Source: an uncultured Acidimicrobiaceae bacterium (GTDB taxonomy: Bacteria > Actinomycetota > Acidimicrobiia > Acidimicrobiales > Bog-793). From it: a DNA stretch of 64,000 nucleotides. The notes beneath the pieces are model-generated. The model had not been told where the DNA came from, ran no database searches, and worked only from the letters and a program-made list of their open reading frames with translations. The translations under genes and the position numbers were made by a program. The DNA is taken from the NCBI GenBank assembly GCA_963804765.1, contig CAWDRQ010000030.1, positions 155,705 to 219,704 on the forward strand, in the 5' to 3' direction. Shown here piece by piece: positions 5,120-34,140 of this stretch (the stretch's first letter is position 1; each line of letters begins with the position of its first letter).

Positions 5120-5153
5120 GAGTCGGCGGGGGGAATCGCACCCCCCGCCGCTC
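5120..5153 (-). ncRNA. Group II intron domain V candidate
   Basis: RNA sense is GAGCGGCGGGGGGUGCGAUUCCCCCCGCCGACUC. It is 34 nt with an AGC triad at positions 2-4, a GCGA (GNRA) tetraloop and a bulge on the 3' strand. The pairing register is ambiguous because of the G/C runs. Confidence 0.6.
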
Positions 5154-5179
5154 TCAGGACCGGACGTGACAGTCTCCCG

Positions 5180-20486: not shown

Positions 20487-20852
20487 TCACGGTCCTTCGG
20501 GCCTTCGAACACGAACCAGATGGCCACGCACGACGACGATGCATCCTGTGAGGTCGCCGAGTTGCTCGTTGCTCAGAAAGCTCCGTACCGTGCTGGTTAC
20601 TGTTTCGACGTCCTGGTGCTCAGCACGGATGACGGCGATGCCAGGGTGGCTACCAGGCGGGTATCGACGGACATTGCCAAAGCCTCGATCGAGTGTGATG
20701 ACAAAGCGCTGCTCCCTCATCGCTGCGGCGAGGACATCGGGGTCGCCGGCGCCCGTAAGACCTTCGTCGATCACGGTGTCGACATCGTGGCCCCGGGAGG
20801 CGGCGGCAAGCCGCGCTGCCTCTGGGAGATTCTCGTCTAGCTTCAGCCTCAC
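20487..20852 (-). CDS. DUF5615-family PIN-like putative toxin
   Basis: 121 aa. It begins MRLKLDENLPEAARLAAASRGHDVDTVIDEGLTGAGDPDVLAAAMREQRFVITLDRGFG. The (L.DENlp......l...GhdV.....eGl.G..D..vl..a..e.r.liT.D.dF) pattern is typical. Confidence 0.8.
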   Translation of the reverse strand: MRLKLDENLPEAARLAAASRGHDVDTVIDEGLTGAGDPDVLAAAMREQRFVITLDRGFGNVRRYPPGSHPGIAVIRAEHQDVETVTSTVRSFLSNEQLGDLTGCIVVVRGHLVRVRRPEGP

Positions 20853-21109
20853 CCCGGCGACGGCTCGAGTGGGTGCAGCTCCTCACGGGCGAGAAAGGCC
20901 GCGTAGGAAAGGGCGGCGGCGACAGCACCTGGCGGAAGTGACGGGTACTCGACGCGGATCTGCTCCTCGGTCATTCCCGTGGCAAGGCAGTCAAGGATGA
21001 CGCTCACCGGGATGCGGGTGCCGCGAATCCGGGCCTGACCGTGCACGACCGCCGGGTCGGCGTCGATGAGGTCGAGGGGCTCGATTGCCATTGCTCCATG
21101 GTCCCACAT
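20849..21109 (-). CDS. DUF433-family antitoxin-like protein
   Basis: 86 aa; the start may be the second Met at 21091. It contains DPAVVHGQARIRGTRIPVSVILDCLATGMTEEQIRVEYPSLPPGAVAAALSYAA, the DUF433 signature. It overlaps the DUF5615 gene by 4 nt. Confidence 0.8.
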   Translation of the reverse strand: MWDHGAMAIEPLDLIDADPAVVHGQARIRGTRIPVSVILDCLATGMTEEQIRVEYPSLPPGAVAAALSYAAFLAREELHPLEPSPG

Positions 21110-21158: not shown

Positions 21159-21200
21159 GGTGGTGATGGCGAGCCGGCCTGTAGGCGGGGTTCTGTCCGC
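21159..21200 (-). repeat. Orphan copy of the 3'-terminal 42 nt of rnpB (att-type direct repeat, distal copy)
   Basis: ggtggtgatggcgagccggcctgtaggcggggttctgtccgc is identical over 42/42 bases to 33756-33797, in the same orientation. The flanking bases differ on both sides. Confidence 0.9.
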
Positions 21201-21242
21201 TGTGCTATTTGACCAGGACTCTTGTCTGCCGACAGGTGATTT

Positions 21243-21263
21243 GGGCCGCAAATGGGCCGCAAC
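21243..21263. promoter_or_regulatory. Phased GGGCCGCA direct-repeat pair (candidate arm-type integrase site)
   Basis: GGGCCGCAaatGGGCCGCAac, 43 bp inside the distal att copy. The partner pair GGGCCGCGgatGGGCCGCGtg is at 33653-33673. Confidence 0.5.
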
Positions 21264-21284
21264 ACCAGACGCGGGTCTGTGAAA

Positions 21285-21900
21285 TCAGCCTTCGATGGGC
21301 GCTCGCGCTGCTATATCGGAAGCACGCAAGCCTCGATCTACTGCTGCCCGAGTCCGGTCGTCAGTATCTGGCCACAGGTGGCCGTAGGTGTCGAGCGTCT
21401 CACTGGCTGTCGCGTGCCCGAGGCGGGCCTGAACGATCTTCACACTCTCGCCGCCGTCGATCAGTAGCGACGCGTAGTAGTGACGGAGAGCGTGAAAGCC
21501 AGTTCCATTAGGCGCGCCTGCCGCTTTCACTGCCGGACGCCAGACCTCGGAGAATCGCGTGCGGCGCAACGGCCCGCCCTGTGGATTGGTGAACAAGAGC
21601 CCGTCCGAGCCAAGCGGATAAGCCGCCATGTGAGCTGCGAGCTCACTGAGCACGACGTCGGGGAGCGGGATCGTGCGGACGCTCGCCGTCGTCTTCGGGG
21701 GGCACAGAATGATCCCGACGATCGCGCCAGATCGACGTTCTTGTGCACTTCACTGCTTCCGTTGCGATTCATGCGAGTTCCCCAGCCATTTCGTGAAGCA
21801 GCAGCATCAGGCAGTCTTGGCGAGCACCAGACCCCAATAACGCTGCCGCGCCGTGGCCGCGTCCACGATGCCCGCAGACCGCCCACCCTTGCGCGTTGAG
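21285..21900 (-). pseudogene. Tyrosine recombinase (phage-integrase family) remnant: catalytic half only, with frameshift(s)
   Basis: The C-terminal frame reads ...GIILCPPKTTASVRTIPLPDVVLSELAAHMAAYPLGSDGLLFTNPQGGPLRRTRFSEVWRPAVKAAGAPNGTGFHALRHYYASLLIDGGESVKIVQARLGHATASETLDTYGHLW (H.LRH...LGH...Y). The preceding EVHKNVDLARS lies in another frame. The N-terminal ~180 aa expected for such enzymes are not present. Confidence 0.7.
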
Positions 21901-22138
21901 GCACGCAATCGCCTCTTAAGTAGAAGGGCCTAACAGCAACAATCTCATCGCCAAAAACGCAATACGGGCCATTCGGAGAGCCTCTGCTTCACACCGCCTT
22001 CGCGGGTTCCGGGTCCGCTAAATCGGCCCGCCATTGTCGTCGCCTAGTGCCATCAGACTCGCTTCTAACTAACGATAAGACTGGTTTATCGTTGGTCACA
22101 AACGAGGAAAAGGGGAGGGCGCCGTGACGCTGCTCCAA
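21857..22138 (+). repeat. Integrase-leader module, copy a (about 282 bp)
   Basis: Roughly 75-80% identical by eye to 26641-26920. Weaker similarity extends back to 21764/26587. The module ends with a ribosome-binding site and the first five codons GTG ACG CTG CTC CAA of a plus-strand integrase. Confidence 0.8.
22071..22093 (+). promoter_or_regulatory. Conserved palindrome in the integrase leader
   Basis: Copy a is AACGATAA-gactggt-TTATCGTT. Copy b (26856-26876) is ACGATAAA-gctag-TTTATCGT. The arms are conserved while the centre differs. It lies about 30 nt upstream of the GTG start. Confidence 0.5.
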
Positions 22139-22294
22139 AGCACCAAGCAAGCCGTCGAACTGGCCGAGATCGCCTCCGATGCTCGGGACTACGTGGCCGC
22201 GAGCCGGGCCGAGAACACGACCTGTGTCTACCGCGCCGGCTGGGCGCAGTTCACCGCCTGGTGTGACGAGCACGGGGTGACGGCTCGGCCCTGA
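22124..22294 (+). pseudogene. Tyrosine recombinase, N-terminal 56-codon fragment
   Basis: VTLLQSTKQAVELAEIASDARDYVAASRAENTTCVYRAGWAQFTAWCDEHGVTARP*. The A..NT...Y...W..F..WC motif marks the SAM-like N-terminal domain of this integrase type. No catalytic domain follows. Confidence 0.6.
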
Positions 22295-22496
22295 GGAGCT
22301 GGCGCCGCTCTTCCAAGATTGGCAATGGCGGCCGAACGCTTGTCCGCGAACGTCGCCCCACGCTGACGTGAGCCTCCCCCGGTTTTCCGGAGGGGTTGGG
22401 AGGCGATATGGCAACGACGATGGGCAGACGGAAGGCGCGCCGCGGCGCCATCCCCAACGCCGCTCGAGTGCCGTCACCGGCGTCGACGGGGACGTG

Positions 22497-23261
22497 CTAG
22501 GTGCGGCTCGGCGTCGTGCCGGCGCGGCGGATGTCCTCCACCAGGGCGGCCAGGCGGTCATAATGCGAACCCTGCCAGTAGATCCGACTGCAGTCCGGGC
22601 ACGTCGAGAAGTCATTGTAGTCCCGCCGTGTCCGGGGCGGCAGGCGGTGTTCAACGTCCTGCTTCGCCACACGTTCGAGCACGCCGTTGCACTCGAGGCA
22701 TCGGCCGAACGGGGCGATGGCCCCGAACAGGTCGAACCGGCGCAGGATCTCGACGACCTGGCGACGGTAATTGGTCTCCCGCACTAGATGGCCGTGTGTG
22801 ACTTTGGCGTGCTTCAACAGGCCTCGATCCCTGGTGAGGAGGATCCGCTTCTCGTCCACCGAGATCGTCGCCAGTTCGTGGTCGGTGATGTCGTTTCGCC
22901 ACACTGAATCAAAGCCGAGGAGTCGTAGGATTCGGGCGAGCCGGCCGAGATGGACGTCGAGTACGAACCGCGGCTCGCGCAGCGGTCTCGGACGCAGCAG
23001 CACGAGCGACGACACGTCGAGCGCCTCGAACACCGGATACACGCTCACGCGGTCACCCTCACCCACCTGGTGGACGAAGTCCACGGACTCGCCGTTCACC
23101 AGGATCACCTCGATCTCGGTGTGTGGCACCCCGAACGACTCCGCCAGGTCCTTGACAGTGGTGCCGGCGGCCACCTCGAGCGTGATCGGCCGGCCACGCC
23201 GGTCCGGTGGCAGGAAGTCGTTCAACTCGGCATAGAAGCGGACTTCGACGCGGTGGCGCAT
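22497..23261 (-). CDS. Mut7-C RNase-domain protein with N-terminal ubiquitin-like (beta-grasp) domain
   Basis: 254 aa. The N-terminus MRHRVEVRFYAELNDFLPPDRRGRPITLEVAAGTTVKDLAESFGVPHTEIEVILVNGESVDF is the Mut7-C ubiquitin-type domain. It is followed by RFVLDVHLGRLARILRLLGFDS...ILLTRDRGLL (PIN-like Mut7-C). The C-terminal zinc ribbon is RCLECNG...CPDCSRIYWQGSHY. Confidence 0.85.
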   Translation of the reverse strand: MRHRVEVRFYAELNDFLPPDRRGRPITLEVAAGTTVKDLAESFGVPHTEIEVILVNGESVDFVHQVGEGDRVSVYPVFEALDVSSLVLLRPRPLREPRFVLDVHLGRLARILRLLGFDSVWRNDITDHELATISVDEKRILLTRDRGLLKHAKVTHGHLVRETNYRRQVVEILRRFDLFGAIAPFGRCLECNGVLERVAKQDVEHRLPPRTRRDYNDFSTCPDCSRIYWQGSHYDRLAALVEDIRRAGTTPSRT

Positions 23262-23452
23262 TTGCGTCGAGCGTAGGGGCCGTGGATGCCGGATTCCTGT
23301 GGGGTCCGCTCCAGCTCCCCGGCCAAACGCACGAGACTCTCGTCCAGACTGGCCGGCGATCTGCGCCGCGGCCTGCGCGAGTCACGGTCCGCTCGGCCTC
23401 GGCACCCCTGGTCGTCGAGTTGCAGGCCGACCTCGAACGGTGGCGTCTCTGC

Positions 23453-23530
23453 GGCGCGCCAGCCATAGTGGAACTGTTCACGGGCTACTGGCTCTGCCGC
23501 CCGTGCTGCGATCGCCTCGGGCGTGAGGCC
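23453..23530. repeat. Short diverged repeat (copy a) shared with the integrase downstream flank at 27340-27418
   Basis: Both copies start at GGCGCGCC and share about 65-75 nt at roughly 75% identity. On the minus strand several differences fall at third codon positions (EA(I/V)AA..AEPV(A/V)REQ(F/L)). Confidence 0.55.
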
Positions 23531-24151
23531 ATGAAGCTCAGCGGGGAATGGTCCGGCCTGCACTCCGCGGCGAGGCTGCCCACGCCTTTTCGCGCGCGGC
23601 GACCCCGCCCAGATCGCCATTCGTGCGGGCGTCTTTTGGATTAGCAAGCTCCACGGAGGAGCCAAAGAACCTCGGTTATGTCTTCGCCCGCGACCTCTCC
23701 GTTCCCGTGCCCGCTGTCATCGTCCAGCTGGCCTGCCCCAGTGATGGCCCTCCACGTCGCACACCTGACTAGGACGACGTCATCGACGACTGAGGGATAA
23801 CCATCACCGTGCCTCTGCAATGAGCATGGGCGGCAGTGCCGCACCCAGGTCGGTCCCGGCGCTGTGTCGCTCGCCACCCTACGGCATGCACGTGCGGTGC
23901 CCACCTCTTGCGCGTCAAGGTGCTGGCGACGCATGCTTGCGCGGTGGGCCCAAGGCCTAGCTGGAGGTAGCCGACGTGTTACCCAACGGTCATCCCTGTG
24001 ACGGGCCGTGGCCGGAACTGCCAGCTCGTCGCCGTCCCCCTGTCGTGGCGCTGCTGGTGGCCGCGCCGTCCCCCATTTGTGACACGGGTGCCAGTGCTTT
24101 AGGCCCTCATGACACCACGACCGTCATCGGCATCATCCCAGGAGGCGTGAG

Positions 24152-26254
24152 TTGATTCGTACTTGGCAGGTACGCAAGGTTGGAGCAGGTCGTCTGTGGC
24201 TGTGCCTCGTTTGTGTTGTCTCGACGGTTGCTCTCTCGATTGCCCCGGTGATGCTCGCTGGTGCTGCGAGGCCACCTTCGAACGCGCCGCTCGGGTTCTG
24301 GAACAGTTACGCGTACATCACTGACTGGGGCCCGACGTTCCCGTCCGACAAGCCTCCGGGAGGGCCTTTCCCCAACCCGACAACAATTACCTCCTACGAC
24401 CCGACGACAGGCGCTTTCTCAGGCACCGACAATGCCTGGGGCATAGGGCTGGAGAAGATAACCGGGACGCTCTACCCCGACGGCGCCGTGACGTACACGA
24501 TCGTTCACGCCGATGTGGTGCTGAATGGCAAAGGGACCATTACGTTCAACGCTGATGGAACCACCGCGATCTGGAAAGGTACCTGGAGCAATTCGATCGG
24601 CGAAATCGGCACGGACTACGGCGAATGGAAAGGATTCGTGCTGACGGGAACGGTGGAGGCGGACCCGTGCGGGCCTGACGCTACGTCGTGCTCTGTTCCG
24701 CCGACTCCGGTGTCCGGTGTGACAATGACCGCCACCGGGGCTTACCACGTTTCGGCGACAACTGACAGCAAGGGCGACTACTCGATGGTCCTCCAGGTGG
24801 GGACTTACACCATTAGGCCGACCATGGATGATTTCACCTTTGACCCCCCGTCGCGTTCAATCCACCTCGAGACCGACACGACGGATGTGGACTTCACGCT
24901 CTTGAGTTCTCCGTACAGCATCGACTGGCAGATGCCCAGCCGCGTGAAAGAAGGCACGGATGTCTCTTCTGACGGCGGCCTGCCACCTGCCAGCTATGTG
25001 TACCCGGACATGTGGTCGGCGAAGCTGTACCTGACCGAAGGTGGCACGCGGGTGACGTCCTGCCCGTCGGGGTCTGTCTGGAAGTGGCATGTGACCCCGC
25101 TCCACACGGTGGGCAACCGGGAGCCCACCATCACCGAACCGGAGGACGGGTGCGCAACTTCGTTCGAGACAACCCAGCTCGGGACTTACAGGGTGGTCGC
25201 TCAGGAATACAAGCGGACCCCCAAAGGCCTCGTCAAGGACGGGCCCGCAGTCGCCACGCCCGACGTGGTGCTCAACGACTTGTTGATCGTCGGCCTGGGC
25301 GACTCCAACGGGTCGGGCGAAGGGTACCCACCGTTCTACTTCAACCAGTGCCACCGGGGCACAGCGTCCTACCAGTACCAGGCAGCGCAGATGCTGGAGA
25401 AGCTGTTGGAAGGCCACACCAGCATCACGTTCGTTTCCGCCTCCTGCTCGGGTGCCAAGATCCAGAACCTGATCTCCCTCTCCTACGACGGCTTCCCACC
25501 GGGGAACTCGCTGGAGCCGCAGGTCGGTGCCGTGCGCGCGCTCATTGCCGACAGCGGTGGACAACCGCCCCGCAAGGTGGACGCCGCTTTCGTCTCGGTC
25601 GGGGTCAACAACATCGCGTTCGGGCCGGTGATGAGGTACTGCATGGCTGTTCATCTTTCGTACACGACGTGCTCAAACCAAAATGTCACGCCGGTCTACA
25701 ACGCGAACGGCCTTATCAGCGGCTTCGAGCATACGATGTCGTTTAGAGCTTTGACTTTGTCGGACTGGGTCGCCAAGCTGACAGCCGACCTGCCCAGGCT
25801 CTACGGCACGCTCGGGCCAGTGCTGGCGGACCTGGTTGCCCCCGAGGACACGTTCATCACGCAGTACCCGACTTTCGCCTACGCCGATACCAAAGGCAAT
25901 ATCTGCAGCATGCTCGGCCACGACAGCATCTTTACCGAAGCAACCTGGAAGTGGCTGATGGACGTCAACTTGGCGCTCAACGCCCAGGTCGCCGCCACTA
26001 GAAGTCTCGGCTGGCGGGTCGTGCCCGTCGCGCCCGCTTACTTCCTGGGCCACGGCTACTGCGCCACCGACTCCTGGTTCGTCAGTATTACCCGTTCCAT
26101 ATTCAACTTGAACATCGACGGCGCCTTCCATCCCACCGCGGACGGTGCTGCCGTGACGGCCAAGCTCGTCGCAGACGACTCGTGCCTGTGGCTGGTAGGA
26201 AAGCCCGAATGCGGCTATCACATCTTGCCTGTTGCTGGACCAGCTACGGGCTAG
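24152..26254 (+). CDS. Large secreted protein: carboxypeptidase-regulatory-like beta-sandwich plus C-terminal SGNH/GDSL-type hydrolase
   Basis: 700 aa with a TTG start after AGGAGG. The N-terminal TM/signal is LWLCLVCVVSTVALSIAPVMLAGA. The stretch GVTMTATGAYHVSATTDSKGDYSMVLQVGTYTIRP is a CarboxypepD_reg-like motif. SGNH blocks are IVGLGDSNGSGEG (block I), ...SVGVNNIAFG (block III) and FHPTADGAA (block V-like). Confidence 0.7.
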   Translation: MIRTWQVRKVGAGRLWLCLVCVVSTVALSIAPVMLAGAARPPSNAPLGFWNSYAYITDWGPTFPSDKPPGGPFPNPTTITSYDPTTGAFSGTDNAWGIGLEKITGTLYPDGAVTYTIVHADVVLNGKGTITFNADGTTAIWKGTWSNSIGEIGTDYGEWKGFVLTGTVEADPCGPDATSCSVPPTPVSGVTMTATGAYHVSATTDSKGDYSMVLQVGTYTIRPTMDDFTFDPPSRSIHLETDTTDVDFTLLSSPYSIDWQMPSRVKEGTDVSSDGGLPPASYVYPDMWSAKLYLTEGGTRVTSCPSGSVWKWHVTPLHTVGNREPTITEPEDGCATSFETTQLGTYRVVAQEYKRTPKGLVKDGPAVATPDVVLNDLLIVGLGDSNGSGEGYPPFYFNQCHRGTASYQYQAAQMLEKLLEGHTSITFVSASCSGAKIQNLISLSYDGFPPGNSLEPQVGAVRALIADSGGQPPRKVDAAFVSVGVNNIAFGPVMRYCMAVHLSYTTCSNQNVTPVYNANGLISGFEHTMSFRALTLSDWVAKLTADLPRLYGTLGPVLADLVAPEDTFITQYPTFAYADTKGNICSMLGHDSIFTEATWKWLMDVNLALNAQVAATRSLGWRVVPVAPAYFLGHGYCATDSWFVSITRSIFNLNIDGAFHPTADGAAVTAKLVADDSCLWLVGKPECGYHILPVAGPATG

Positions 26255-26640
26255 CTACAGTCACAGTCGCCCTCTTCCTCTTGCTTGGTTGTGCCAGCTC
26301 CGGCGGCCGTAAGTGGTCCGGTGGATAAGGGGACGCGTCGCTCCACCATGAGCCACGGCGGGCCGTGCAGAACTCCAGGTCCTGGACGCTCCCAGAACCC
26401 TCGCGGCGAGTGCGTCGTTGAGATTGGCGTAGCCCCGGAGCTGAAAGCAAGCCCAGGTGTCGTCAGGGACGCACGGGTCATCTCGCTATCCGCACCGATC
26501 GCCCCTTATTGAGTGGACGTTTTCTCGGTGCCCTGGGTGGATAGAGAGCGCGGAACGACGGGTCTAGCGTACGTCGCTGCTCTTGTCGCGACCCATGCGA
26601 GTGCCCGGGCCATCTCGACAAGAAAGCTACGGTGCGGTTA

Positions 26641-26920
26641 CCGCGTCCACGATGCCCGCAGACCGCCCACTGTTGCGTATGGGGGGGCGCAATCGCATCT
26701 CGAGTAGGAAGCTACCAGCGAGCAATCTCATCGCCTAAGCGCCGTCCGGGGCCAACGGAGAGCCGGTACTTGCATGCTGCATTCGCGAATCCCAGGCCCA
26801 CTGACTCGGCCTGCCATTGTCACCTGTCAGTGTCCTTGTGACTCGCTTCTAACTCACGATAAAGCTAGTTTATCGTTGGTCACAAATGAGGAAAAGAGAG
26901 GGACTGTGACGCTGCTCCAA
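26641..26920 (+). repeat. Integrase-leader module, copy b
   Basis: Partner of 21857-22138. It includes the palindrome at 26856-26876 and the GTG ACG CTG CTC CAA start at 26906. Confidence 0.8.
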
Positions 26921-27323
26921 GACCGATCAGGAAGGCGCCGGGCGCGCTGTCGGCATCCCCTACGGGTCGAACCCGGTTACCTGCCCGGTGCGTGCCTGGC
27001 GCGCGTGGCTCGAGGTCTCAGGCATCACCGAGGGACCGGCCTTTCGCCCGGTGGACCGCCATGACCGCATCAGCACGACACGACTAAGCGCCCAGGCGGT
27101 GGCCCTCGTGCTGAAGCGCCACGCTGGCCGTGCGGGGCTCGACCCCGGCGAGGTGGCCGGTCACTCGCTCCGCGCCGGCCTTGCGACTTCGGCTGCTGCT
27201 GCCGGCGTACCCGAGCGCGTCATCGCCGAGCAGACGGGCCACAGGGGCACGGCCATGCTTCGCCGCTACATCCGCGAGGGCTCGCTGTTTCGTGAGAACG
27301 CCGCCGGGGCGGTTGGGCTGTAG
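26906..27323 (+). pseudogene. Tyrosine recombinase with large internal deletion (first 5 codons fused out of frame to the C-terminal 133 codons)
   Basis: VTLLQ is followed, one base out of frame, by SKTDQEGAGRAVGIPYGSNPVTCPVRAWRAWLEVSGITEGPAFRPVDRHDRISTTRLSAQAVALVLKRHAGRAGLDPGEVAGHSLRAGLATSAAAAGVPERVIAEQTGHRGTAMLRRYIREGSLFRENAAGAVGL*. This carries the SKTDQ..G, HSLR and GH...Y motifs. The junction lies in the shared string CTCCAAG. Confidence 0.75.
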
Positions 27324-27552
27324 GGGAGGCTGGCGGGCAGGCGCGCCGGGCACGGTCGAGTTGTTCGCGAACTACCGGCTCTGCCGGCCCTGCTGCAACC
27401 GCCTCGGACGCGTAGGCGAGCCGTTGCCAGCGGTAGGAGACTTCCCGCTGGTAGCGCATATCGGCCAGCGGGCTGCCGTGCCTGGGCCGATTGCATTGTC
27501 CTCGTCGGGTACAACATGTGTCGGACCAACGATCCGTACCTGGAGGACCTTC

Positions 27553-28389
27553 ATGGCGACGAGCCCCACCGTCACGCTCAACAACGGCGTCGAGATTCCT
27601 CAACTCGGCTTCGGTGTCTTCAAAGTCAAGCCAATTGAGACCGTGTCCGCCGTGACCACCGCACTTCGGGTGGGGTACCGCCACATTGACACCGCGGAGA
27701 TGTACGGCAACGAGAAGGAGGTCGGCCTGGCCATCACCGCCTCAGGACTCGACCGGGACGACGTGTTCGTCACGAGCAAGCTAAACAACAACCACCACCC
27801 TTACAGCGATGCTCTCGCCGCCTTTGACCAGACACTGAGCGACCTTGGCCTCGAATATGTCGATCTTTTCCTCATCCACTGGCCTCTGCCGGCCGTTGGC
27901 GACTTCGTCGAGACGTGGCGCGCACTCGAGAGCGTGTACAGGGACGACCGCGCTCGGGCCATCGGCGTCTCTAACTTTCACGCCGACCACCTCCGCCGCC
28001 TGCTTGACGAGACGGAGCTCGTCCCGGCAGTCAACCAGATCGAGGCACACCCCTACCTGACCCAGGAGCCGCTTCGCGCTTTCAACGCCAGCCACGGCAT
28101 CAAAACCGAGGCCTGGTCGCCGATCGCCCGGGGCAGGGTACTGGACGATCCGACCATCAAGGCTGTCGTCCATCGGACCGGTCGGACAGCGGCGCAGGTC
28201 GTATTGCGATGGCACATTCAACTGGGCAACATCGTGTTCCCGAAGTCTGTCCGGCCGGATCGAATCGAGGAGAACTTCAACATCTTCGATTTCGAGCTCT
28301 CCGGCGAGGACATGGCGGCAATCTCGAAGCTAGACCGGGGCGAACGCACCGGCCCGGACCCCGACACGTTCAACTACGTGCCGGACTGA
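27553..28389 (+). CDS. Aldo/keto reductase (2,5-diketo-D-gluconate-reductase-like)
   Basis: 278 aa from ATG 27553: MATSPTVTLNNGVEIPQLGFGVFKV...GYRHIDTAEMYGNEKEVG...LFLIHWP...AIGVSNF...NQIEAHPYL...AWSPIARG. All standard AKR blocks are present. Confidence 0.9.
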   Translation: MATSPTVTLNNGVEIPQLGFGVFKVKPIETVSAVTTALRVGYRHIDTAEMYGNEKEVGLAITASGLDRDDVFVTSKLNNNHHPYSDALAAFDQTLSDLGLEYVDLFLIHWPLPAVGDFVETWRALESVYRDDRARAIGVSNFHADHLRRLLDETELVPAVNQIEAHPYLTQEPLRAFNASHGIKTEAWSPIARGRVLDDPTIKAVVHRTGRTAAQVVLRWHIQLGNIVFPKSVRPDRIEENFNIFDFELSGEDMAAISKLDRGERTGPDPDTFNYVPD

Positions 28390-28585
28390 GTTCATCGGTG
28401 GGCATGGTCGCGCCCAGTTCAGGTCGTGGAGGTATCTGCCGAGCTTGACTGCAAGATGGTCGCGAAGCACCGGTGTGACTCCTCCGGGCATGGGCTGCTC
28501 GACCTGGCTGCCTATGACGACTACCTGCAATGGCGGCTCGACCTGGGCTGAACAGGGCTCTCCGCCGCTTCGACCGTCGGTCGGC

Positions 28586-29017
28586 CTAGCGAGCCCAGTC
28601 CGGATCGAGCTGACTGAGGAACAGCGCACAGCGCTGCGCCTCGTCGATCTCTCCTATCGCTTCGGCAGCTCGGCGCAGGGCCTCGACTGAGCGCAGGAAG
28701 CCACGGTTCGTCTCGTGCCGCCAGCGCACGTAGCCCGAGCCTCGCCAGCCCGCGGCGCGTAGCGCGTCGAGCCCGCGGTGATAGCCGACTCGGGCGTAGG
28801 CGTAGGACTCCACTTCGTCCTCGACCAGCTCGGCCAGTGAGGCCCAAGCCTCGAGGAAACGCGGGTACGCGCGGGCAACGGCTTCGACCGCGGTTTCACG
28901 CTCCGCACCCGACATGGCGAACGCGTCCGCGAGGGCCTCCGTCCACTCCTCGGGCGGAGCGGGAAGCACCGTCTCAGGGAGGCCTCGGCTGAGATTGACT
29001 GCTGCGTCGTCGGTCAT
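28586..29017 (-). CDS. DUF3151-family protein
   Basis: About 143 aa from ATG 29017 (MTDDAAVNLSRGLPETVLPAPPEE...). The stretch AYPRFLEAWASLAE....ESYAYARVGYHRGLDALRAAGWRGSGYVRW....NRGFLR matches my memory of DUF3151. Confidence 0.7.
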   Translation of the reverse strand: MTDDAAVNLSRGLPETVLPAPPEEWTEALADAFAMSGAERETAVEAVARAYPRFLEAWASLAELVEDEVESYAYARVGYHRGLDALRAAGWRGSGYVRWRHETNRGFLRSVEALRRAAEAIGEIDEAQRCALFLSQLDPDWAR

Positions 29018-29163
29018 GGCTTCATCCTTGCTCAGGCCGCCGCGGGCTGGGCCACGGCGCTCAGGCCATCCTGTACGTGCTGATCGATCCAGGTCACCTT
29101 GGTCGGTCACTTACCCGACATGTATCGCCGAGTGGGAACTCTCCCGATGGTCTGGTCTCGGGA

Positions 29164-29814
29164 CTACTTAGCCGCTCTGGCCAACGTGATCTTGATCTGT
29201 GGTCGCCACGGCACCGACGCTCGCCGGATGCTTCGGAAGTCCTCGTCCTCCAGCATACGATCGAGGACTATCGAGGAGCTAAACCTGCCTTCACTCGGCC
29301 GTCGTGCCAAGAGCCAGCGGAGCCACCGCGCGGCAAGGATGTCAGTCAGGACGAAAAGGCCACCGCCACGAAGTACACGCCGAATCTCGTGGAGGCCCAG
29401 CTGCTGATCCGCCCAGTGATGGAAGCTGAGGGTCGTCAGGACAAGATCGAAGTGGGCGTCGGGGAAAGGGAGCTTCTCGACCGATCCATTCACGAAGCCG
29501 ATATGGTGATCTGCCCGAGACGCTTGAGCCTGCTTCACCATTCCAAGAGCGGGGTCCACCCCGACAAGCTCGGCGTAGGGGAAGCGACGATCCAACCGAC
29601 GTAGCAGTTGGCCAGTCCCGCATCCCACATCGAGAACAGCTTGGACCGACCGGGCGTTGACAGCGGCTTCGGAGATCGTCGCCTCTTGGACTGGTCCGAA
29701 GAAGATGCGCTGCAGGACGGAGCGGTCATAGTGCGACGACTGTTGACCGACTGACTCGATGAGCACGGCGACGGCATCCACCTTGATCATGACTGATGGT
29801 CGTGCCGTCGCCAC
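29164..29814 (-). CDS. Class I SAM-dependent methyltransferase
   Basis: 216 aa. Motif I is VLDVGCGTGQLLRRL, followed by ELVGVDPALGMV, FPDAHFDLVLT and LRGGGLFVLTD. Confidence 0.85.
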   Translation of the reverse strand: MATARPSVMIKVDAVAVLIESVGQQSSHYDRSVLQRIFFGPVQEATISEAAVNARSVQAVLDVGCGTGQLLRRLDRRFPYAELVGVDPALGMVKQAQASRADHHIGFVNGSVEKLPFPDAHFDLVLTTLSFHHWADQQLGLHEIRRVLRGGGLFVLTDILAARWLRWLLARRPSEGRFSSSIVLDRMLEDEDFRSIRRASVPWRPQIKITLARAAK

Positions 29815-29856
29815 TCGTGTTCACCGTGTCGAGCGCGAATGTTCAGGCTGTCGGCA

Positions 29857-30672
29857 TCACTCAGCGGTGATCTCCGCCACCGCCATTCGAGCCGATGATT
29901 CGTCGACGATCGCCTTCTTCTCACCGTAGGCGGCGACGAGGGACTGGACCGCCAGGTTGTTCACCACGCGGGGCAGGCCGCGGCTGACCTGGTGTATGAG
30001 CGAGTTGGCGTCGTCGGAGAACAGCCGGTCGCTCCGTCCCGCGAGCGCCAGGTGATCCGCGATGTAGTCGCCGGTCTCCGAAGCGCTCATGCCCTGCAGG
30101 TGGTAGCGCAGAGCGATCCGCTGCTCCAAGGCGGCGAATGCTCCGAGGCGGATGCGCCGGCGCAGCGTCGGCTGGCCGCAGAGCACGAGGGAGAACGGGC
30201 TCACCGAGTCGAGCTCGGCGTTCATGAGCAGGCGCAGCCCCTCGAGCTGCTCGGGGGAGAGAAGGTGAGCCTCGTCGACCGCGAGGATCACCTTCTTCCC
30301 CCGCTCGGCGGACTCCTGCGCGAGGAGGTCGGCCGTCTGAGGGACGAGCGCCGCGGCATGGAACCGGGGGACCCCTCCGAGCGCGCTGACGATCGCTGCG
30401 TGCATTCCGCGCACGCCGATCGTCGGGTTGGCGAGGTAGACGACGGTATGGCGCGACGAGTCGAGTCCGGCGACCGCGGCCCGAAGAGCCACGGTCTTGC
30501 CGGAGCCGACTTCGCCGGTGAGCACCCCCGCCGCGGACTCCACGACGAGGAACCCGACCCGGGCGACGGCCTCCAGGTGGCCGGCGTGACGATGCAGCGC
30601 CCCGGGGGCGACGTCCTTTCCGAAGGGCATCTTCGAAAAGCCGTAATGGGCACGAAGCAGCTCGATCGTCAT
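29857..30672 (-). CDS. ExeA/TniB-like AAA+ ATPase (transposition helper)
   Basis: 271 aa. It begins LLRAHYGFSKMPFGKDVAP.... Walker A is GEVGSGKTVAL and Walker B is ILAVDEAHLL. The stretch PFSLVLCGQPTLRRRI is typical of ExeA-type ATPases that accompany Mu-like DDE transposases. It has a 4-nt overlap with the upstream gene. Confidence 0.85.
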   Translation of the reverse strand: MTIELLRAHYGFSKMPFGKDVAPGALHRHAGHLEAVARVGFLVVESAAGVLTGEVGSGKTVALRAAVAGLDSSRHTVVYLANPTIGVRGMHAAIVSALGGVPRFHAAALVPQTADLLAQESAERGKKVILAVDEAHLLSPEQLEGLRLLMNAELDSVSPFSLVLCGQPTLRRRIRLGAFAALEQRIALRYHLQGMSASETGDYIADHLALAGRSDRLFSDDANSLIHQVSRGLPRVVNNLAVQSLVAAYGEKKAIVDESSARMAVAEITAE

Positions 30673-32069
30673 GACCGTCCCTCTCGTGTCTCGATGGGCC
30701 GGTCGGTGACGAGGTCCCAGCTCGCCGGGCGGGTGACGACGATGCCGTCCAGGTCCTGCTCGCTCGGGCCGGCGCCATCGGGCAGGTCGGTGTAGGCGAT
30801 CCTCTTGGCCATCTCCTCGCTGTGGCGGGCCTCGATGAGAGCGAGGTAGTCGATCCCGGTGGGCACAGGTGGTGGCTCGGGGTCCTTCGCGACCCGGGGA
30901 TGGCTGTGACGACGGGTGACGTGCGGCACCGCCTCACCCATCGGTCGGCCCTCGAAGCGGACCTCGACGGCTTCCAGATGGAACGGGTCGAAGACGAGCT
31001 CGACTCGCCGACCGATGAGCGCGGGATCGACCTCATATGAGTTGCCGAACAGGTTGACGGTGCCGGTCTTTGTGACCATGCGCCGCTCGGCCCACAAGAA
31101 GGCCTCGTGAAGCTGTTCGGCAGACGGCGGAGAACTGGGTGCTCCGCCGGCGAGGAAGCGCTCGATCGGCGCCTCGCCGGTCTCGGTGTGCCGGCGGCGG
31201 TGATAGACGGACTCGACGAAGGCGGAGAACAACGAGTTCATCTCGTCGAGGCCGCAGACCTTGCCGGGATCGAGCTCGACCAAGAACTGCTCCCGCACGG
31301 TCTTGAAGACGCGCTCGATCTTCCCACGGCCTTCCGGTCGACCCGGCTTGCTGTGATGGAGCTTCATCCCGAGCACCGCGCACGCCCGCAGCAGCTGGAT
31401 AGAGACCATTGCGCTCCCGTTATCGAGGTAGATGGCCTCGGGGATCCCACGTCGCTCGATGCCCGAGCGGAGTGCGGCCTCGAGGCGGAGCGTGTCCTCG
31501 GCGTGTCCCCAGCGATAGCCGACAAGAGCTCGGGAGTAGTCGTCGATGAAGGCGAACAGATAGGTCTTCCTCCCCCCGATGACCGGCCCGTGCAGGGCGT
31601 CGCCGGTCCACAGCTCGTTCGGGCGGTCCGCCTCGAAGCGCCCGAAGGCGAGTTTCGGCCGGCTCTCGGACCGGGCGAGGCCGACACGGACGAAGTGGCG
31701 CTGCAAGGTGCGCTCGTGCGGTGCCCAGCCCCCGACGGTCCGCAGCAGCTCGCAGATGTGCGCCGCGGTGCGCTCTGGGCGCTCGCGCCGCAGTCGGCAG
31801 GCGAGGTCCAGCAGCTCCTCGGGCGTGCGGGGGTTGGCATGGCGCGCCTCGGGCTTCAGTGCCGCGAAGCCGCCGGAGCGGAGCATCCTCGTCCAGCGGT
31901 CGATCGTGGCGCGTGACACGTACACCTCGGTCCCTCCCGGCCCGAGGTGGGCCGTGCCGGCCAGCTCTCGCGCGAGCCGGCCACGTTCAGCTCCCGACAG
32001 CGACTCGTCGACGAGGCAGCGCACGAGCGAGTAGCGGAACAACGCGACTTCGGTCGCGTGGTCTTCCAT
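30669..32069 (-). CDS. DDE (rve-type) transposase with Mu-transposase-like C-terminal domain
   Basis: 466 aa from ATG 32069, preceded by GGAGGAGG. An N-terminal HTH is present. The DDE triad context is WTGDALHG / FIDDYSRALVGYRW, IYLDNGSAMVS and GRPEGRGKIERVF. The C-terminal beta-barrel-like region is VTKTGTVNLFGNSYEV. Confidence 0.9.
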   Translation of the reverse strand: MEDHATEVALFRYSLVRCLVDESLSGAERGRLARELAGTAHLGPGGTEVYVSRATIDRWTRMLRSGGFAALKPEARHANPRTPEELLDLACRLRRERPERTAAHICELLRTVGGWAPHERTLQRHFVRVGLARSESRPKLAFGRFEADRPNELWTGDALHGPVIGGRKTYLFAFIDDYSRALVGYRWGHAEDTLRLEAALRSGIERRGIPEAIYLDNGSAMVSIQLLRACAVLGMKLHHSKPGRPEGRGKIERVFKTVREQFLVELDPGKVCGLDEMNSLFSAFVESVYHRRRHTETGEAPIERFLAGGAPSSPPSAEQLHEAFLWAERRMVTKTGTVNLFGNSYEVDPALIGRRVELVFDPFHLEAVEVRFEGRPMGEAVPHVTRRHSHPRVAKDPEPPPVPTGIDYLALIEARHSEEMAKRIAYTDLPDGAGPSEQDLDGIVVTRPASWDLVTDRPIETREGRS

Positions 32070-32127
32070 GGTCCTCCTCCTTCTTGTCTTCGGCCCTTTC
32101 CAGGTCGCCAAGAAGGCTCGCGGGCGC

Positions 32128-32709
32128 TCAGGACCCTGACGAGGGGGAACTCGTGTTGGTGAGGAGGCGGCCCGAGGTGATCACCGCCGCCCATCCCCAC
32201 CCCGGGCGCGGACCGAGGCGCCGGGTGGCCGTGGCCATCGCGAGACCGAGCGCTGCGAGCGCGTCGGCGAAGGGCGATCCGACCGGTGTGATCGCCCCGA
32301 GGGACGCGTCGAAGGCGTGCGCCCAGGCCCAGCAGCGCACCCGCAGCTGCTCGGCTGCCGCAGCGAAGCGACGGAACCATCCCCGCACGGTGTCCGGCGG
32401 GATGGACAGGCGCGCCCCGATCACGCGTCGACCGTCCCCGGCTGCTTTGGCGAGGAGCGCTTTTCCGATCGTCGCGAGCGCGTCGCGTCGGCGCAGGAGA
32501 CACGAGTCGGGCAACAAGACGTGGGTCTTCTCGCACGACCTGCAGCGTGAGCGTCTCGGGACGAGCGCGGTCTCGACACCTTCTTCACGAAGCGCGCGTT
32601 TGCGTGCCGAGCCCCAGGGTCGCAACTCGCCACCGCAACCCGGGCAGAAGAGCACCCCCGCCCCAAGGGACTGCTCGACCGCGGCGCGGTCACTCTCTAC
32701 GATGAGCAC
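32128..32709 (-). CDS. DUF6431-like zinc-ribbon protein (first gene of the transposon)
   Basis: 193 aa with GTG start 32709 after GGAGG. It has CPGCGGEL...RSRCRSCEKTHVLLP cysteine pairs and DTVRGWFRRFAAAAEQL. I recall this protein type directly upstream of DDE/ExeA pairs in actinobacteria. Confidence 0.55.
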   Translation of the reverse strand: MLIVESDRAAVEQSLGAGVLFCPGCGGELRPWGSARKRALREEGVETALVPRRSRCRSCEKTHVLLPDSCLLRRRDALATIGKALLAKAAGDGRRVIGARLSIPPDTVRGWFRRFAAAAEQLRVRCWAWAHAFDASLGAITPVGSPFADALAALGLAMATATRRLGPRPGWGWAAVITSGRLLTNTSSPSSGS

Positions 32710-32732
32710 GGATGCCTCCGGGCGTTTTAGGA

Positions 32733-32771
32733 GGACCCCCTCGTGCTCGGCAAGAGTTGGCGAGGGGGTCC
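32733..32771. other. Strong inverted repeat (11-bp stem, 17-nt loop) just upstream of the transposon's first gene
   Basis: GGACCCCCTCG-(17 nt)-CGAGGGGGTCC, a perfect stem, 24 nt upstream of GTG 32709 on the gene strand. No U-tract follows on the gene strand. A weak one (CUUGCAUUUA) follows on the plus strand. Confidence 0.5.
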
Positions 32772-33652: not shown

Positions 33653-33673
33653 GGGCCGCGGATGGGCCGCGTG
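33653..33673. promoter_or_regulatory. Phased GGGCCGCG direct-repeat pair (candidate arm-type integrase site, rnpB-proximal arm)
   Basis: GGGCCGCGgatGGGCCGCGtg, 83 bp from the att core. It has the same orientation and 11-bp register as 21243-21263. An AACGATAA motif at 33697-33704 matches the arms of the integrase-leader palindrome. Confidence 0.5.
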
Positions 33674-33755
33674 ACCACCGCAAGCGCGTGATAATCAACG
33701 ATAACGAGTGACACGTGAACAACCTGGTCAGGGGGTATTTCTACCCATCTCACCA

Positions 33756-34140
33756 GGTGGTGATGGCGAGCCGGCCTGTAGGCGGGGTTCTGTCCGCCGG
33801 CCGGCAAGCCGGTACCGACGGGGTGGCCATCCATCTACGCGGCCTACCTGGGGACATCGGGCGGGCCACCCGTCCCACGTTTGGCCTTGCTCCGGGTGGG
33901 GTTTACCGAGCCGACCGGGTCGCCCCGGCCGCTGGTGCGCTCTTGCCGCACCTTTTCACCCTTGCCTGTACACGGCGTGCCGTGCCATCGGCGGTCTGTT
34001 CTCTGTGGCACTGTCCTGCGGGTCGCCCCGACTAGCTGTTAGCCAGCACCCTGCCCTGTGGAGCCCCGACCTTCCTCAGCCGGCTGCGGCGCCGAAACGC
34101 CACACCGGCCGCGGCCACCCGGTCGACTCGCCATCACCGG
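33756..34140 (-). ncRNA. rnpB: RNase P RNA, bacterial type A
   Basis: The minus-strand sequence contains the universally conserved blocks GAGGAAGGUCGGGGCUCCACAGGGCAGGGUGCUGGCUAACAG, GGUGAAAAGGUGCGGCAAGAGCGCACC, GGUAAACCCCACCCGGAGCAAGGCCAAA and ACAGAACCCCGCCUA. A 12-bp P1 stem forms between GGUGAUGGCGAG (5') and CUCGCCAUCACC (3'). The ends are accurate to a few nt. Confidence 0.92.

What the first reader, a model, noticed from the sequence alone, without database searches (positions are those of the whole stretch)
21243..21263. Phased GGGCCGCR repeat pairs on both inner flanks of the att repeats look like arm-type integrase sites
**What is seen.** 21243-21263 reads GGGCCGCAaatGGGCCGCAac and lies 43 bp inside the distal att copy. 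33653-33673 reads GGGCCGCGgatGGGCCGCGtg and lies 83 bp inside the rnpB-proximal copy. All four 8-mers have the same orientation. Within each pair the register is 11 bp, one helical turn.

**Why it matters.** A lone GGGCCGC is common in DNA this GC-rich. By a rough base-composition estimate of my own, however, an 11-bp-phased pair is expected far less than once per window. Both observed pairs sit beside the att cores.

**Inference.** Rejoining the two ends would give an attP with repeat pairs on both arms. This supports the view that the two island ends belong to one element rather than being coincidental.
Basis: partly seen in the sequence, partly recalled or inferred. Interest (0 to 1): 0.6.

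Follow-up and report, generated by a model that had tools for sequence, protein, structure and literature searches.

The report
Integrase arm-binding repeats at island ends
Two phased GGGCCGC repeat pairs just inside the ends of a 12.6-kb island in the RNase P RNA gene are very probably leftover docking ("arm-type") sites for the island's integrase; this is a known kind of site, found here in an apparently undescribed family of elements.

Summary
GGGCCGCAaatGGGCCGCA (21243-21261) and GGGCCGCGgatGGGCCGCG (33653-33671) are the only 11-bp-phased GGGCCGC pairs in the window. They lie 42 and 84 nt inside a perfect 42-bp direct repeat, which is the 3' end of rnpB.

The arm-type-site interpretation is supported by comparison, not by experiment.
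- The island's integrase remnant belongs to a large Actinomycetota family that sits next to rnpB.
- In 15 of 19 related elements where both ends could be read, one short motif forms an 11-bp-phased pair on both arms, at conserved positions. Pair-to-pair distance in the rejoined attP is 187-221 bp.
- The motif differs between elements: GCGGAC, GAGGAC, GGGGAC, GCGGCC, ACGGCC, GTGTAC.
- Motif class tracks the integrase N-terminal domain, not the catalytic domain. That domain is predicted to fold like the lambda Int arm-binding domain.
- Across 1.25 Mb of related DNA, all seven GCGGCCC-N4-GCGGCCC pairs are next to an rnpB att site.

In this window the integrase has lost its N-terminal two thirds, so the sites are probably relics. 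This is a new member of a known kind. Binding by an excisionase instead of Int is not excluded.

The parts
21243..21261 (-). P' arm pair (integrase-proximal). On the + strand it reads GGGCCGCAaatGGGCCGCA. In the int/rnpB orientation it reads tTGCGGCCCatTTGCGGCCCa. It lies between the int stop codon (21285-21287) and the distal att copy.
   Evidence: The position matches the P' pair of related elements, 57-81 nt before the core block.
33653..33671 (-). P arm pair (rnpB-proximal inner flank). On the + strand it reads GGGCCGCGgatGGGCCGCG. In the int orientation it reads aCGCGGCCCatCCGCGGCCCg.
   Evidence: It aligns column for column with the P-arm pairs of 17 related elements. The motif and spacer (GCGGCCCATCCGCGGCCC) are identical in the L024, L052 and L084 P arms.
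33675..33681 (-). Possible degenerate third copy in the P arm. It reads CCACCGC on +, which is GCGGTGG in the int orientation, one further 11-bp step from the pair.
   Evidence: Read from the sequence. Only 4 of 7 bases match. Some relatives have three phased copies (L019, L029, L034). This part is weak.
21159..21200 (-). Distal att copy: the displaced 3' fragment of rnpB, one half of the 42-bp identity block.
   Evidence: Perfect direct repeat. It matches the rnpB 3'-end HMM at E = 2.6e-7.
33756..33797 (-). rnpB-proximal att copy: the last 35 nt of rnpB plus 7 nt.
33763..34130 (-). rnpB (bacterial RNase P RNA class A), the integration target.
   Evidence: Rfam RF00010, 220.5 bits, model positions 1-367.
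21285..21749 (-). Tyrosine integrase remnant. Only the C-terminal ~154 codons remain. The N-terminal arm-binding domain, the core-binding domain and the first catalytic arginine region are missing.
   Evidence: Translation. Pfam PF00589 matches only model positions 62-168 of 172. Full-length relatives are about 370-450 aa.
21210..21217 (-). CCTGGTCA box in the P' arm (int orientation), 9 nt before the core. It is an inverted copy of the P-arm box.
   Evidence: Read from the sequence. Related elements have GCAGGTCAG-like sequence between the int stop and the core. Its function is inferred only.
33723..33731 (-). CTGACCAGG box in the P arm (int orientation), 24 nt after the core. It is followed by GTTGT/GTTAT/GTTGA repeats up to the arm pair.
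   Evidence: A CTGACC[TA]G box is present in most of the aligned P arms, whatever the arm-motif class. It is a candidate accessory-protein site, by inference only.

Best explanation
The two GGGCCGC pairs (GCGGCCC in the integrase orientation) are the arm-type binding sites of the attP of a small integrative island. The island inserted into the 3' end of rnpB.

In the circular form the layout is: int 3' end, pair, about 60 bp, core (rnpB 3' end), about 85 bp, pair. All four copies point the same way.

A heterobivalent tyrosine integrase would hold each pair with the small N-terminal domains of two protomers, on one face of the helix because of the 11-bp phase. Its core-binding and catalytic domains would hold the rnpB-derived core. 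The arm DNA between them would be bent, probably with accessory proteins, to build the recombination complex.

What is shown:
- the sites, their positions and their rarity;
- their conservation and co-variation across the family;
- the fold prediction for the N-terminal domain.

What is inferred:
- that Int, rather than another protein, binds them;
- that they are needed for recombination.

In this window the integrase gene has lost about two thirds of its 5' part. The sites are therefore most likely inert relics that still mark both ends of one element. A related GCGGCC-class integrase supplied in trans might still use them, but that is speculation.
For: 1. The pairs are real and non-random, and they flank the 42-bp rnpB direct repeat.
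2. The int remnant's family is large, with 1165 hits at E<1e-10. It is rnpB-associated: a full or nearly full rnpB lies in the fetched DNA of about 60 of 80 genome loci, in most of them beside int.
3. In 15 of 19 att-copy pairs, one motif forms an 11-bp-phased pair on both arms. The P' pair lies 57-81 nt before the core, the P pair 84-122 nt after it, and the total is 187-221 bp (window 188). The P arms align with the pair in one column block.
4. Phase specificity: the same 6-mer forms two or more separate phased pairs in 19 of 83 sequences at d=11. At d=7, 8, 10, 13, 14 and 16 the count is 0-4.
5. Both-arm evidence exists for six different motif classes. GCGGCCC pairs occur only at rnpB att sites in 1.25 Mb.
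6. Motif class tracks N-terminal-domain identity. The residual is +0.156, reached by 0 of 5000 label permutations. For the catalytic domain it is +0.013, reached by 771 of 5000.
7. Integrases chosen only for N-terminal-half similarity (185 aa: arm-binding plus core-binding region) to L024 carry GCGGCCC pairs beside rnpB.
8. The N-terminal domain is modelled as three strands plus a helix, at pLDDT 90. The top Foldseek PDB hits are lambda Int 1Z1B and 1Z1G. AtERF1 AP2 and the Tn916 Int N-domain are also in the list. There are sub-threshold Pfam hits to Arm-DNA-bind_4, and the precomputed annotation is PF26003 Integrase_N_phage.
9. Precedent: mycobacteriophage CrimD has two pairs of 11-bp repeats flanking the attP core. 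L5 and Giles have pairs in direct orientation, and site changes go with changes in N-terminal Int residues (PMC3203893).
Against: - There are no binding or recombination data.
- The window encodes no intact integrase, so nothing here can read the sites.
- Domain-level support is modest. Pfam arm-domain hits are below the curated cut-off (13.6-17.9 bits against 22.3). No Foldseek hit reaches E <= 0.001.
- The excisionase gene (HTH_17) sits directly upstream of the int 5' end. It is therefore linked to the N-terminal domain, so the co-variation test does not separate Int-N from Xis. Too few Xis genes were recovered to test this.
- Four of 19 att-copy pairs showed no shared pair.
- About 30 of 82 family integrases show no exact phased pair. 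These include all those with int directly downstream of rnpB.
- Sequences in the co-variation test are phylogenetically related, so the permutation count is not a true probability.
Confidence: 0.8

Rival explanations
1. The pairs are binding sites for the element's excisionase/RDF (a small HTH_17 protein) or another accessory or regulatory protein, not for the integrase N-terminal domain.
For: - An HTH_17 gene lies directly upstream of int in L084, L085/L086 and L024.
- That position links it genetically to the int N-terminal domain, so the co-variation could reflect Xis.
- RDF sites are typically phased direct repeats (my own knowledge of lambda Xis and L5 gp36).
Against: - The pairs lie on both arms, symmetrically about the core. 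Characterised RDF sites lie on one arm, between the core and the distal arm site (my own knowledge).
- A separate set of conserved repeats, GTTGR plus the CTGACC[TA]G box, already occupies that position in the P arm.
- The N-terminal domain has the arm-binding fold and needs sites somewhere.
- The Xis test itself was inconclusive, with only 2 same-class pairs.
Confidence: 0.12
2. The repeats are conserved for a non-recombination reason. The P' pair would be a by-product of a conserved C-terminal peptide of Int (AD..[LV]RT). Alternatively, the pairs would be operators or terminators controlling int or rnpB expression.
For: - In most relatives the P' pair lies inside the int 3' coding end and corresponds to a conserved peptide.
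- A hairpin lies between the int stop and rnpB.
Against: - In the window the P' pair is after the stop codon, so it is non-coding.
- The P-arm pair is non-coding in all elements, yet carries the same element-specific motif.
- The two copies of a pair fall in different reading frames, because an 11-bp offset is not a multiple of 3. A peptide constraint would not produce a DNA repeat.
- The motif varies while its position is fixed.
Confidence: 0.04
3. Chance co-occurrence of a GC-rich 7-mer in GC-rich DNA.
For: - The window is 66.6% G+C, and GGGCCGC occurs 39 times on the two strands.
- 7 of 300 Markov simulations give some 7-mer with two separate phased pairs.
Against: - Both pairs lie within 85 nt of the 42-bp att repeat.
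- The same architecture recurs in 15 related elements.
- All 7 GCGGCCC-N4-GCGGCCC pairs in 1.25 Mb are adjacent to an att site.
Confidence: 0.01

Closest known systems
Arm-type sites of mycobacteriophage tyrosine integrases (L5 P1/P2 and P4/P5; Giles; Cluster K phage CrimD P1-P4)
   Same: - Actinobacterial hosts.
- attP core taken from the 3' end of a stable RNA gene (tRNA or tmRNA).
- Two pairs of adjacent ~11-bp repeats, one pair on each side of the core. They are in direct orientation in L5 and Giles.
- Site consensus changes go with changes in N-terminal Int residues (PMC3203893).
   Different: - The target here is rnpB, not a tRNA or tmRNA gene.
- The integrases are only distantly related. 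The best phage match is 38.5% identity, to Arthrobacter phage TripleJ.
- The elements are 7-12 kb islands, with restriction-modification or defence-type genes in the two relatives inspected, not phages.
- In most members the P' pair is embedded in the int coding sequence.
Phage lambda Int arm-type sites (P1, P2, P'1-P'3)
   Same: - Heterobivalent logic: an N-terminal three-strand-plus-helix domain reads arm sites that differ from the core sites.
- Adjacent sites are spaced about one helical turn apart.
- Sites lie on both arms.
- The best structural match of the modelled N-terminal region is lambda Int, 1Z1B and 1Z1G.
   Different: - The number and arrangement differ: 2+2 in direct orientation here, 2+3 in lambda.
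- There is no sequence similarity between the sites.
- The host bending factors are unknown here.
- What is said about lambda rests on my own knowledge plus the PDB titles.
[quoted passage not shown]
   Same: - Small actinobacterial integrative elements.
- A Xis-Int module, with attP directly downstream of int.
- An identity segment at the 3' end of an RNA gene that is restored on integration (PMC2440964).
   Different: - AICEs are described as targeting tRNA genes.
- No replication or conjugation genes were seen in the two relatives inspected (L024; L084).
Tn1549/Tn916 integrase
   Same: - It is the closest solved structure by sequence for the core-binding and catalytic part (6EMY, E = 1.2e-13).
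- The Tn916 Int N-terminal DNA-binding domain appears among the fold matches.
   Different: - Those are conjugative transposons with relaxed target choice.
- The crystallised Tn1549 construct lacks the arm-binding domain (my own knowledge).

Membership tests
Arm-type sites of a heterobivalent (lambda-type) tyrosine integrase | Sites lie in the attP arms, outside the attP/attB identity (core) segment, on both sides of it. | tested here: met
   The pairs lie 42 nt and 84 nt outside the 42-bp identity block. The layout is the same in 15 of 19 related att-copy pairs.
Arm-type sites of a heterobivalent (lambda-type) tyrosine integrase | The arm-site sequence is distinct from the core sequence and is repeated within an element. 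| tested here: met
   GCGGCCC occurs four times in the arms and is absent from the 42-bp core, GGTGGTGATGGCGAGCCGGCCTGTAGGCGGGGTTCTGTCCGC.
Arm-type sites of a heterobivalent (lambda-type) tyrosine integrase | The cognate integrase has an extra N-terminal arm-binding domain (three-stranded sheet plus helix) before the core-binding domain. | tested here: met
   This holds for full-length family members, not for the window's remnant.
- About 50-60 aa precede the SAM-like/Phage_int_M domain.
- The AF2 model is strand-strand-strand-helix at pLDDT ~90.
- The top Foldseek hits are lambda Int 1Z1B and 1Z1G, at probability 1.00 and 0.99 but E only 7e-3.
- Pfam Arm-DNA-bind_4 is sub-threshold.
- The precomputed annotation is PF26003 Integrase_N_phage.
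Arm-type sites of a heterobivalent (lambda-type) tyrosine integrase | An intact cognate integrase is encoded by this element. | tested here: not met
   Only the C-terminal ~154 codons remain, at 21285-21749. The sites are therefore classed as relics of such a system.
Arm-type sites of a heterobivalent (lambda-type) tyrosine integrase | Site sequence co-varies with the N-terminal domain across related elements, while position is conserved. | tested here: met
   N-domain identity is 0.615 for same-motif pairs and 0.444 for different-motif pairs, at similar C-domain identity. In the permutation test, 0 of 5000 reach the observed value for the N domain and 771 of 5000 for the C domain. The sequences are related to one another, and Xis is linked to the N domain.
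Arm-type sites of a heterobivalent (lambda-type) tyrosine integrase | The Int N-terminal domain binds the sites directly, and the sites are required for recombination. | not testable with these tools
   This needs gel shift or footprinting, plus integration and excision assays.
Integrative island in the 3' end of a stable RNA gene (tDNA-type island, here rnpB) | An intact target gene at one end, a displaced 3' fragment as a direct repeat at the other, and an integrase gene inside next to one end. | tested here: met
   rnpB is full length. The 42-bp direct repeat is perfect. The int remnant ends 84 nt from the distal copy.
RDF (excisionase) binding sites | Phased repeats on one arm only, between the core and the outer arm-type site. 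| tested here: not met
   The pairs occur on both arms and are the outermost conserved repeats. The defining feature itself comes from my own knowledge of lambda and L5.

The most novel reading that the evidence does not exclude
The window's pairs are one instance of a large and apparently undescribed family of rnpB-targeting heterobivalent integrases in Actinomycetota. Three features stand out.

- **Diversified specificity.** Arm-site specificity has split into at least eight sequence classes: GCGGAC, GAGGAC, GGGGAC, GCGGCC, ACGGCC, GTGTCA, TGTGCC and GTGTAC. These classes co-vary with a few residues of the N-terminal domain.
- **Dual coding.** The integrase-proximal pair is usually encoded inside the 3' end of int.
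- **Core in both orientations.** The rnpB-derived core is found in both orientations relative to otherwise co-linear arms, even within one motif class.

This would be a natural data set for a recognition code of AP2-like arm-binding domains. It would also be a source of mutually orthogonal integrases for actinobacteria.
Probability: 0.55. Interest if true: 0.6.

Novelty: new member of a known kind. Interest (0 to 1): 0.45.

Why it matters
**For this window.** The sites confirm that the two ends belong to one integrative element, and they delimit a complete though inactive attP. That settles the island's boundaries at 21201-33755 and its origin.

**More broadly.**
- rnpB appears to be a regular integration target in Actinomycetota.
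- The associated integrases offer many natural variants of one arm-site architecture, with matching changes in the N-terminal domain. This is useful for learning how arm-binding domains read DNA.
- They could also supply orthogonal site-specific integration tools for high-GC Gram-positive bacteria.

None of this changes the general picture of how tyrosine integrases work.

Tried and rejected
- **Pfam on full-length relatives.** Only the catalytic and SAM-like/central domains were found. The N-terminal 56-70 aa alone gave sub-threshold Arm-DNA-bind_4 and _3 hits.
- **Xis versus motif co-variation.**
  - A first regular-expression search found nothing.
  - phmmer and jackhmmer recovered only 7 Xis genes, giving 2 same-class pairs. 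The result is inconclusive.
- **Literature.** Four full-text searches for rnpB as an integration target found nothing relevant. The mycobacterial ncRNA paper mentions extra rnpB copies but not integration. This does not prove that no report exists.
- **Phage collection.** There is no close relative of the integrase; the best match is 38.5% identity.
- **Simple inverted-segment idea.** I considered that the window's layout (int at the end far from rnpB) was a local inversion artefact. I rejected it as a one-off, because seven independent elements share that layout, four of them with intact int genes: L038, L060, L063 and L068.
- **Members without a shared or exact pair.**
  - L006 (first fragment), L017 and L036 showed no shared pair.
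  - The seven loci with int directly downstream of rnpB showed no exact phased pair.
  - They were not studied further.
- **Spacings of 9, 12 and 15 bp.** These are useless as controls because codon periodicity inflates them.

Full report
**1. Observation**

The window reads GGGCCGCAaatGGGCCGCA at 21243-21261 and GGGCCGCGgatGGGCCGCG at 33653-33671. Both are on the + strand with an 11-bp register.

A search for GGGCCGCRNNNGGGCCGCR with up to one mismatch finds only these two places. The expectation is 0.12, and 1 of 100 shuffles reaches two.

GGGCCGC occurs 20 times on + and 19 times on -. The only same-strand copies within 40 bp of each other are these two 11-bp pairs and one 33-bp pair near 54.5 kb. 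GGGCCGC is also the only 7-mer in the window that forms two separate 11-bp-phased pairs. Any 7-mer did so in 7 of 300 Markov simulations, before position is taken into account.

**2. Setting**

- A perfect 42-bp direct repeat lies at 21159-21200 and 33756-33797.
- rnpB (RF00010, full length, 220 bits) is at 33763-34130 on the minus strand. The repeat is therefore its last 35 nt plus 7 nt.
- No tRNA gene is present.
- On the minus strand, a tyrosine-integrase remnant ends at 21285. Only about 154 C-terminal codons remain, matching Pfam PF00589 positions 62-168 of 172.
- Homology to integrases stops near 21750. A block duplicated at 26619-26896 begins at 21835.

In the orientation of rnpB and int, the order is:

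rnpB, core, P arm (33755 downwards, with the pair 84 nt in), about 12 kb of cargo, int remnant, stop, 21 nt, pair, 42 nt, core copy.

In that orientation all four copies read GCGGCCC.

**3. Relatives**

The C-terminal fragment has 1165 database relatives at E<1e-10. A scan of species-representative genomes returned 80 loci, nearly all from Actinomycetota. They include Acidimicrobiia, Nocardioides, Mycobacterium, Geodermatophilaceae and Pseudonocardia.

nhmmer with rnpB shows a full or nearly full rnpB in about 60 of them, in most of them beside int. An HMM of the rnpB 3' end finds displaced fragments in 19 cases.

Three layouts occur:
- **Type A, the commonest.** Int is convergent with rnpB, and its stop codon is about 25 bp from the rnpB 3' end.
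- **Type B, the window's layout.** rnpB comes first, then the island, then int pointing outwards at the displaced fragment. It is found in the window, L001, L038, L048, L060, L063 and L068. Four of these (L038, L060, L063 and L068) have intact int genes.
- **Type C.** Int lies directly downstream of rnpB and in the same direction. Seven loci show this.

**4. The decisive comparison**

Reading both arms of these elements shows that each has its own short motif. The motif forms an 11-bp-phased pair near the int 3' end, and again about 90-120 bp beyond the core on the other arm, in the same orientation.

| Element | Int-side (P') pair | Far-arm (P) pair |
|---|---|---|
| L008 | CTGCGGACGcaCTGCGGACG | CTGCGGACGcaCTGCGGACC |
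| L009 | GTGAGGACAatCTGAGGACA | CTGAGGACAatCTGAGGACA |
| L006 | GTGGGGACTctGTGGGGACT | TTGGGGACTagGTGGGGACC |
| L060 | ACGGCCCAcagACGGCCCAg | ACGGCCCAGagACGGCCCAG |
| L063 | GTGTAaagggcGTGTACgtcg | GTGTACGCCGcGTGTACGCCG |
| L024 | CCGCGGCCCAgCCGCGGCCCA | CCGCGGCCCAtCCGCGGCCCA |

L052 has the same motif as L024 on both arms. It is also the window's motif.

A scripted search found a shared phased pair on both arms in 15 of 19 att-copy pairs.
- The P' pair lies 57-81 nt before the identity block.
- The P pair lies 84-122 nt after it.
- The pair-to-pair distance in the rejoined attP is 187-199 bp for most elements (window 188). It is 211-221 bp for L060, L063 and L068.

A MAFFT alignment of 18 P arms puts the window's pair in the same columns as most of the others.

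**5. Controls**

- The same 6-mer forms two or more separate phased pairs in 19 of 83 sequences at a period of 11. At periods 7, 8, 10, 13, 14 and 16 the count is 0-4. Periods 9, 12 and 15 are inflated by codon periodicity and cannot serve as controls.
- In 1.25 Mb (all loci plus the window), GCGGCCC occurs 926 times on the two strands. GCGGCCC-N4-GCGGCCC occurs 7 times. All seven are in the int orientation and next to an rnpB 3' end or fragment: L024 twice, L052 twice, the window twice and L041 once. Every other gap from 0 to 30 nt gives 0-2.

**6. Who reads the sites**

*The domain.* Full-length relatives (about 370-450 aa) have 50-60 residues before the SAM-like/Phage_int_M and catalytic domains. 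This stretch has a W[RQ]ARYRD signature.
- On its own it gives only sub-threshold Pfam hits to Arm-DNA-bind_4, at 13.6-17.9 bits against a cut-off of 22.3.
- The database's precomputed annotation calls it PF26003 Integrase_N_phage.
- An AlphaFold2 model was built from P0213 with an 86-sequence alignment. It gives strand-strand-strand-helix for residues 2-47 at pLDDT about 90.
- The best Foldseek matches in the PDB are full-length lambda Int (1Z1B, 1Z1G; probability 1.00 and 0.99). AtERF1 AP2 and the Tn916 Int N-terminal domain are also listed. No E-value reaches 0.001.

*Co-variation.* I grouped 29 integrases by the motif at their 3' end.
- N-domain identity is 0.615 within a motif class and 0.444 between classes.
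- Catalytic-domain identity is 0.642 and 0.612 respectively.
- After regressing one on the other, the N-domain excess is +0.156, reached by 0 of 5000 label permutations. The C-domain excess is +0.013, reached by 771 of 5000.
- Class-specific residues sit in the third strand. By eye:
  - (K/R)EH goes with GCGGAC.
  - RQH goes with GGGGAC.
  - A Q-containing variant goes with GAGGAC.
  - ER[SA]R goes with GCGGCC and ACGGCC.

*Forward test.* I searched with the N-terminal half of the L024 integrase (185 aa) and fetched the two closest hits (P0121, 89% identity; P0123, 90%). Both carry TCGCGGCCCAaCCGCGGCCCA at the int 3' end beside rnpB. L084 also has the P-arm copy CCGCGGCCCAtCCGCGGCCCA.

**7. 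Limits**

- No binding has been measured.
- The permutation test ignores phylogenetic relatedness.
- An HTH_17 excisionase gene lies immediately upstream of int, so it is linked to the N-terminal domain. Too few Xis genes were recovered to test them separately.
  - the pairs are on both arms and are the outermost repeats;
  - a different conserved set, the CTGACC[TA]G box and GTTGR repeats, lies between the core and the P pair. That is where RDF sites are expected (for the repeats; the expectation is my own knowledge).
- About 30 of 82 integrases, including all type C, show no exact pair.

**8. Mechanism proposed**

As in lambda, L5 and the Cluster K mycobacteriophages, Int protomers would bridge arm and core DNA. 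The N-terminal domains of two protomers would sit on each phased pair, on one helical face. Their catalytic domains would act on the near-palindromic rnpB-derived core (CCCGCCTACAGGCCGG in the window).

The published precedent is close. CrimD has two pairs of 11-bp repeats flanking a tmRNA-derived core. L5 and Giles have pairs in direct orientation. Site differences go with substitutions in N-terminal Int residues (PMC3203893).

In this window the reader protein is gone, so the sites are relics.

**9. Novelty**

The kind of site is well known. The family appears undescribed in the literature I could search. It has no close relative among sequenced phages, the best being 38.5% identity. AICE reviews speak of tRNA targets only (PMC2440964).

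I therefore rate it a new member of a known kind, of moderate interest. The family-level features, listed under things noticed in passing, are the more novel part.

Noticed in passing
window 21159-21290 and 33650-33797, compared with L024, L052, L084 (type A) and L038, L060, L063, L068 (type B): The rnpB-derived core is in opposite orientation relative to int and the two arms in type A and type B elements, while the arms stay co-linear. Both types occur within one arm-motif class: for GCGGCC, the window against L024/L052/L084; for GAGGAC, L038 against L019; for GCGGAC, L068 against many. The core is near-palindromic. How the flip arises is unexplained.
   Followed up: partly
window 33685-33731 (P arm) and 21210-21217 (P' arm); P arms of 17 loci: A CTGACC[TA]G box lies 25-50 bp from the core in most of the aligned P arms, whatever the arm-motif class, followed by GTTGR repeats up to the arm pair. 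An inverted copy or hairpin (CTGAC...GTCAG) lies between the int stop and the core. These are candidate sites for Xis or a host bending protein, or a terminator.
   Followed up: partly
L002 6600-6620; int 3' ends of 48 of 82 family members: The integrase-proximal pair usually lies inside the int coding sequence, 41-75 nt after the HLWPD codons. Its two copies are in different reading frames. This produces the conserved C-terminal peptide AD..[LV]RT. In the window the pair lies after the stop codon instead.
   Followed up: partly
window 21835-22112 and 26619-26896; 22079-22294 (+); 26910-27323 (+): A ~280-bp block is duplicated 4784 bp apart at 79-91% identity. Each copy is followed by a piece of a second, unrelated tyrosine recombinase: an N-terminal piece at 22079-22294, and a C-terminal piece with a PF00589 hit at 26910-27323. 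The first copy abuts the point where the island's integrase is truncated.
   Followed up: no
window 29857-32709 (-): A transposon-like module lies inside the island. It has a DUF6431/HTH protein, an rve plus Mu-transposase-C protein (480 aa) and an AAA_22 ATPase (271 aa). It is probably a later insertion that enlarged the island.
   Followed up: no
window 5117-7007 (-): Group II intron RNA domains: RF01999 at 6890-7007 and RF00029 at 5117-5192. This lies outside the island.
   Followed up: no
L060 10634-10760; L006 975-1003 and 2499-2532; L063 7992-10507; L001 5325-5345: There are signs of tandem or successive integrations at rnpB. L060 has a second P arm with its own ACGGCCCAG pair after the displaced fragment. 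L006 has two displaced fragments. L063 has two integrase genes in tandem. L001 has an inverted GTTGACCGC pair beyond the fragment.
   Followed up: no
(protein database hits): Nearly all of the best database hits to this integrase family are short: 110-320 aa, against about 400 aa for the full length. This holds even on long contigs. Many rnpB-adjacent integrase genes may be truncated or frameshifted, as in the window, L001 and L002. Part of the effect comes from short metagenome contigs.
   Followed up: no
L024 450-10520; L084 3700-11140: The cargo of two GCGGCC-class relatives is defence-like. It includes C5 DNA methylase, HNH endonuclease, an EcoRV-type endonuclease, HATPase_c_3 and a weak Shedu SduA_C hit. 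No replication or conjugation genes were seen.
   Followed up: partly
window 20849-21109 (-): A DUF433 gene lies immediately outside the distal att copy. In the identical metagenome contig L003 it is followed by a PhdYeFM/YoeB toxin-antitoxin pair.
   Followed up: no
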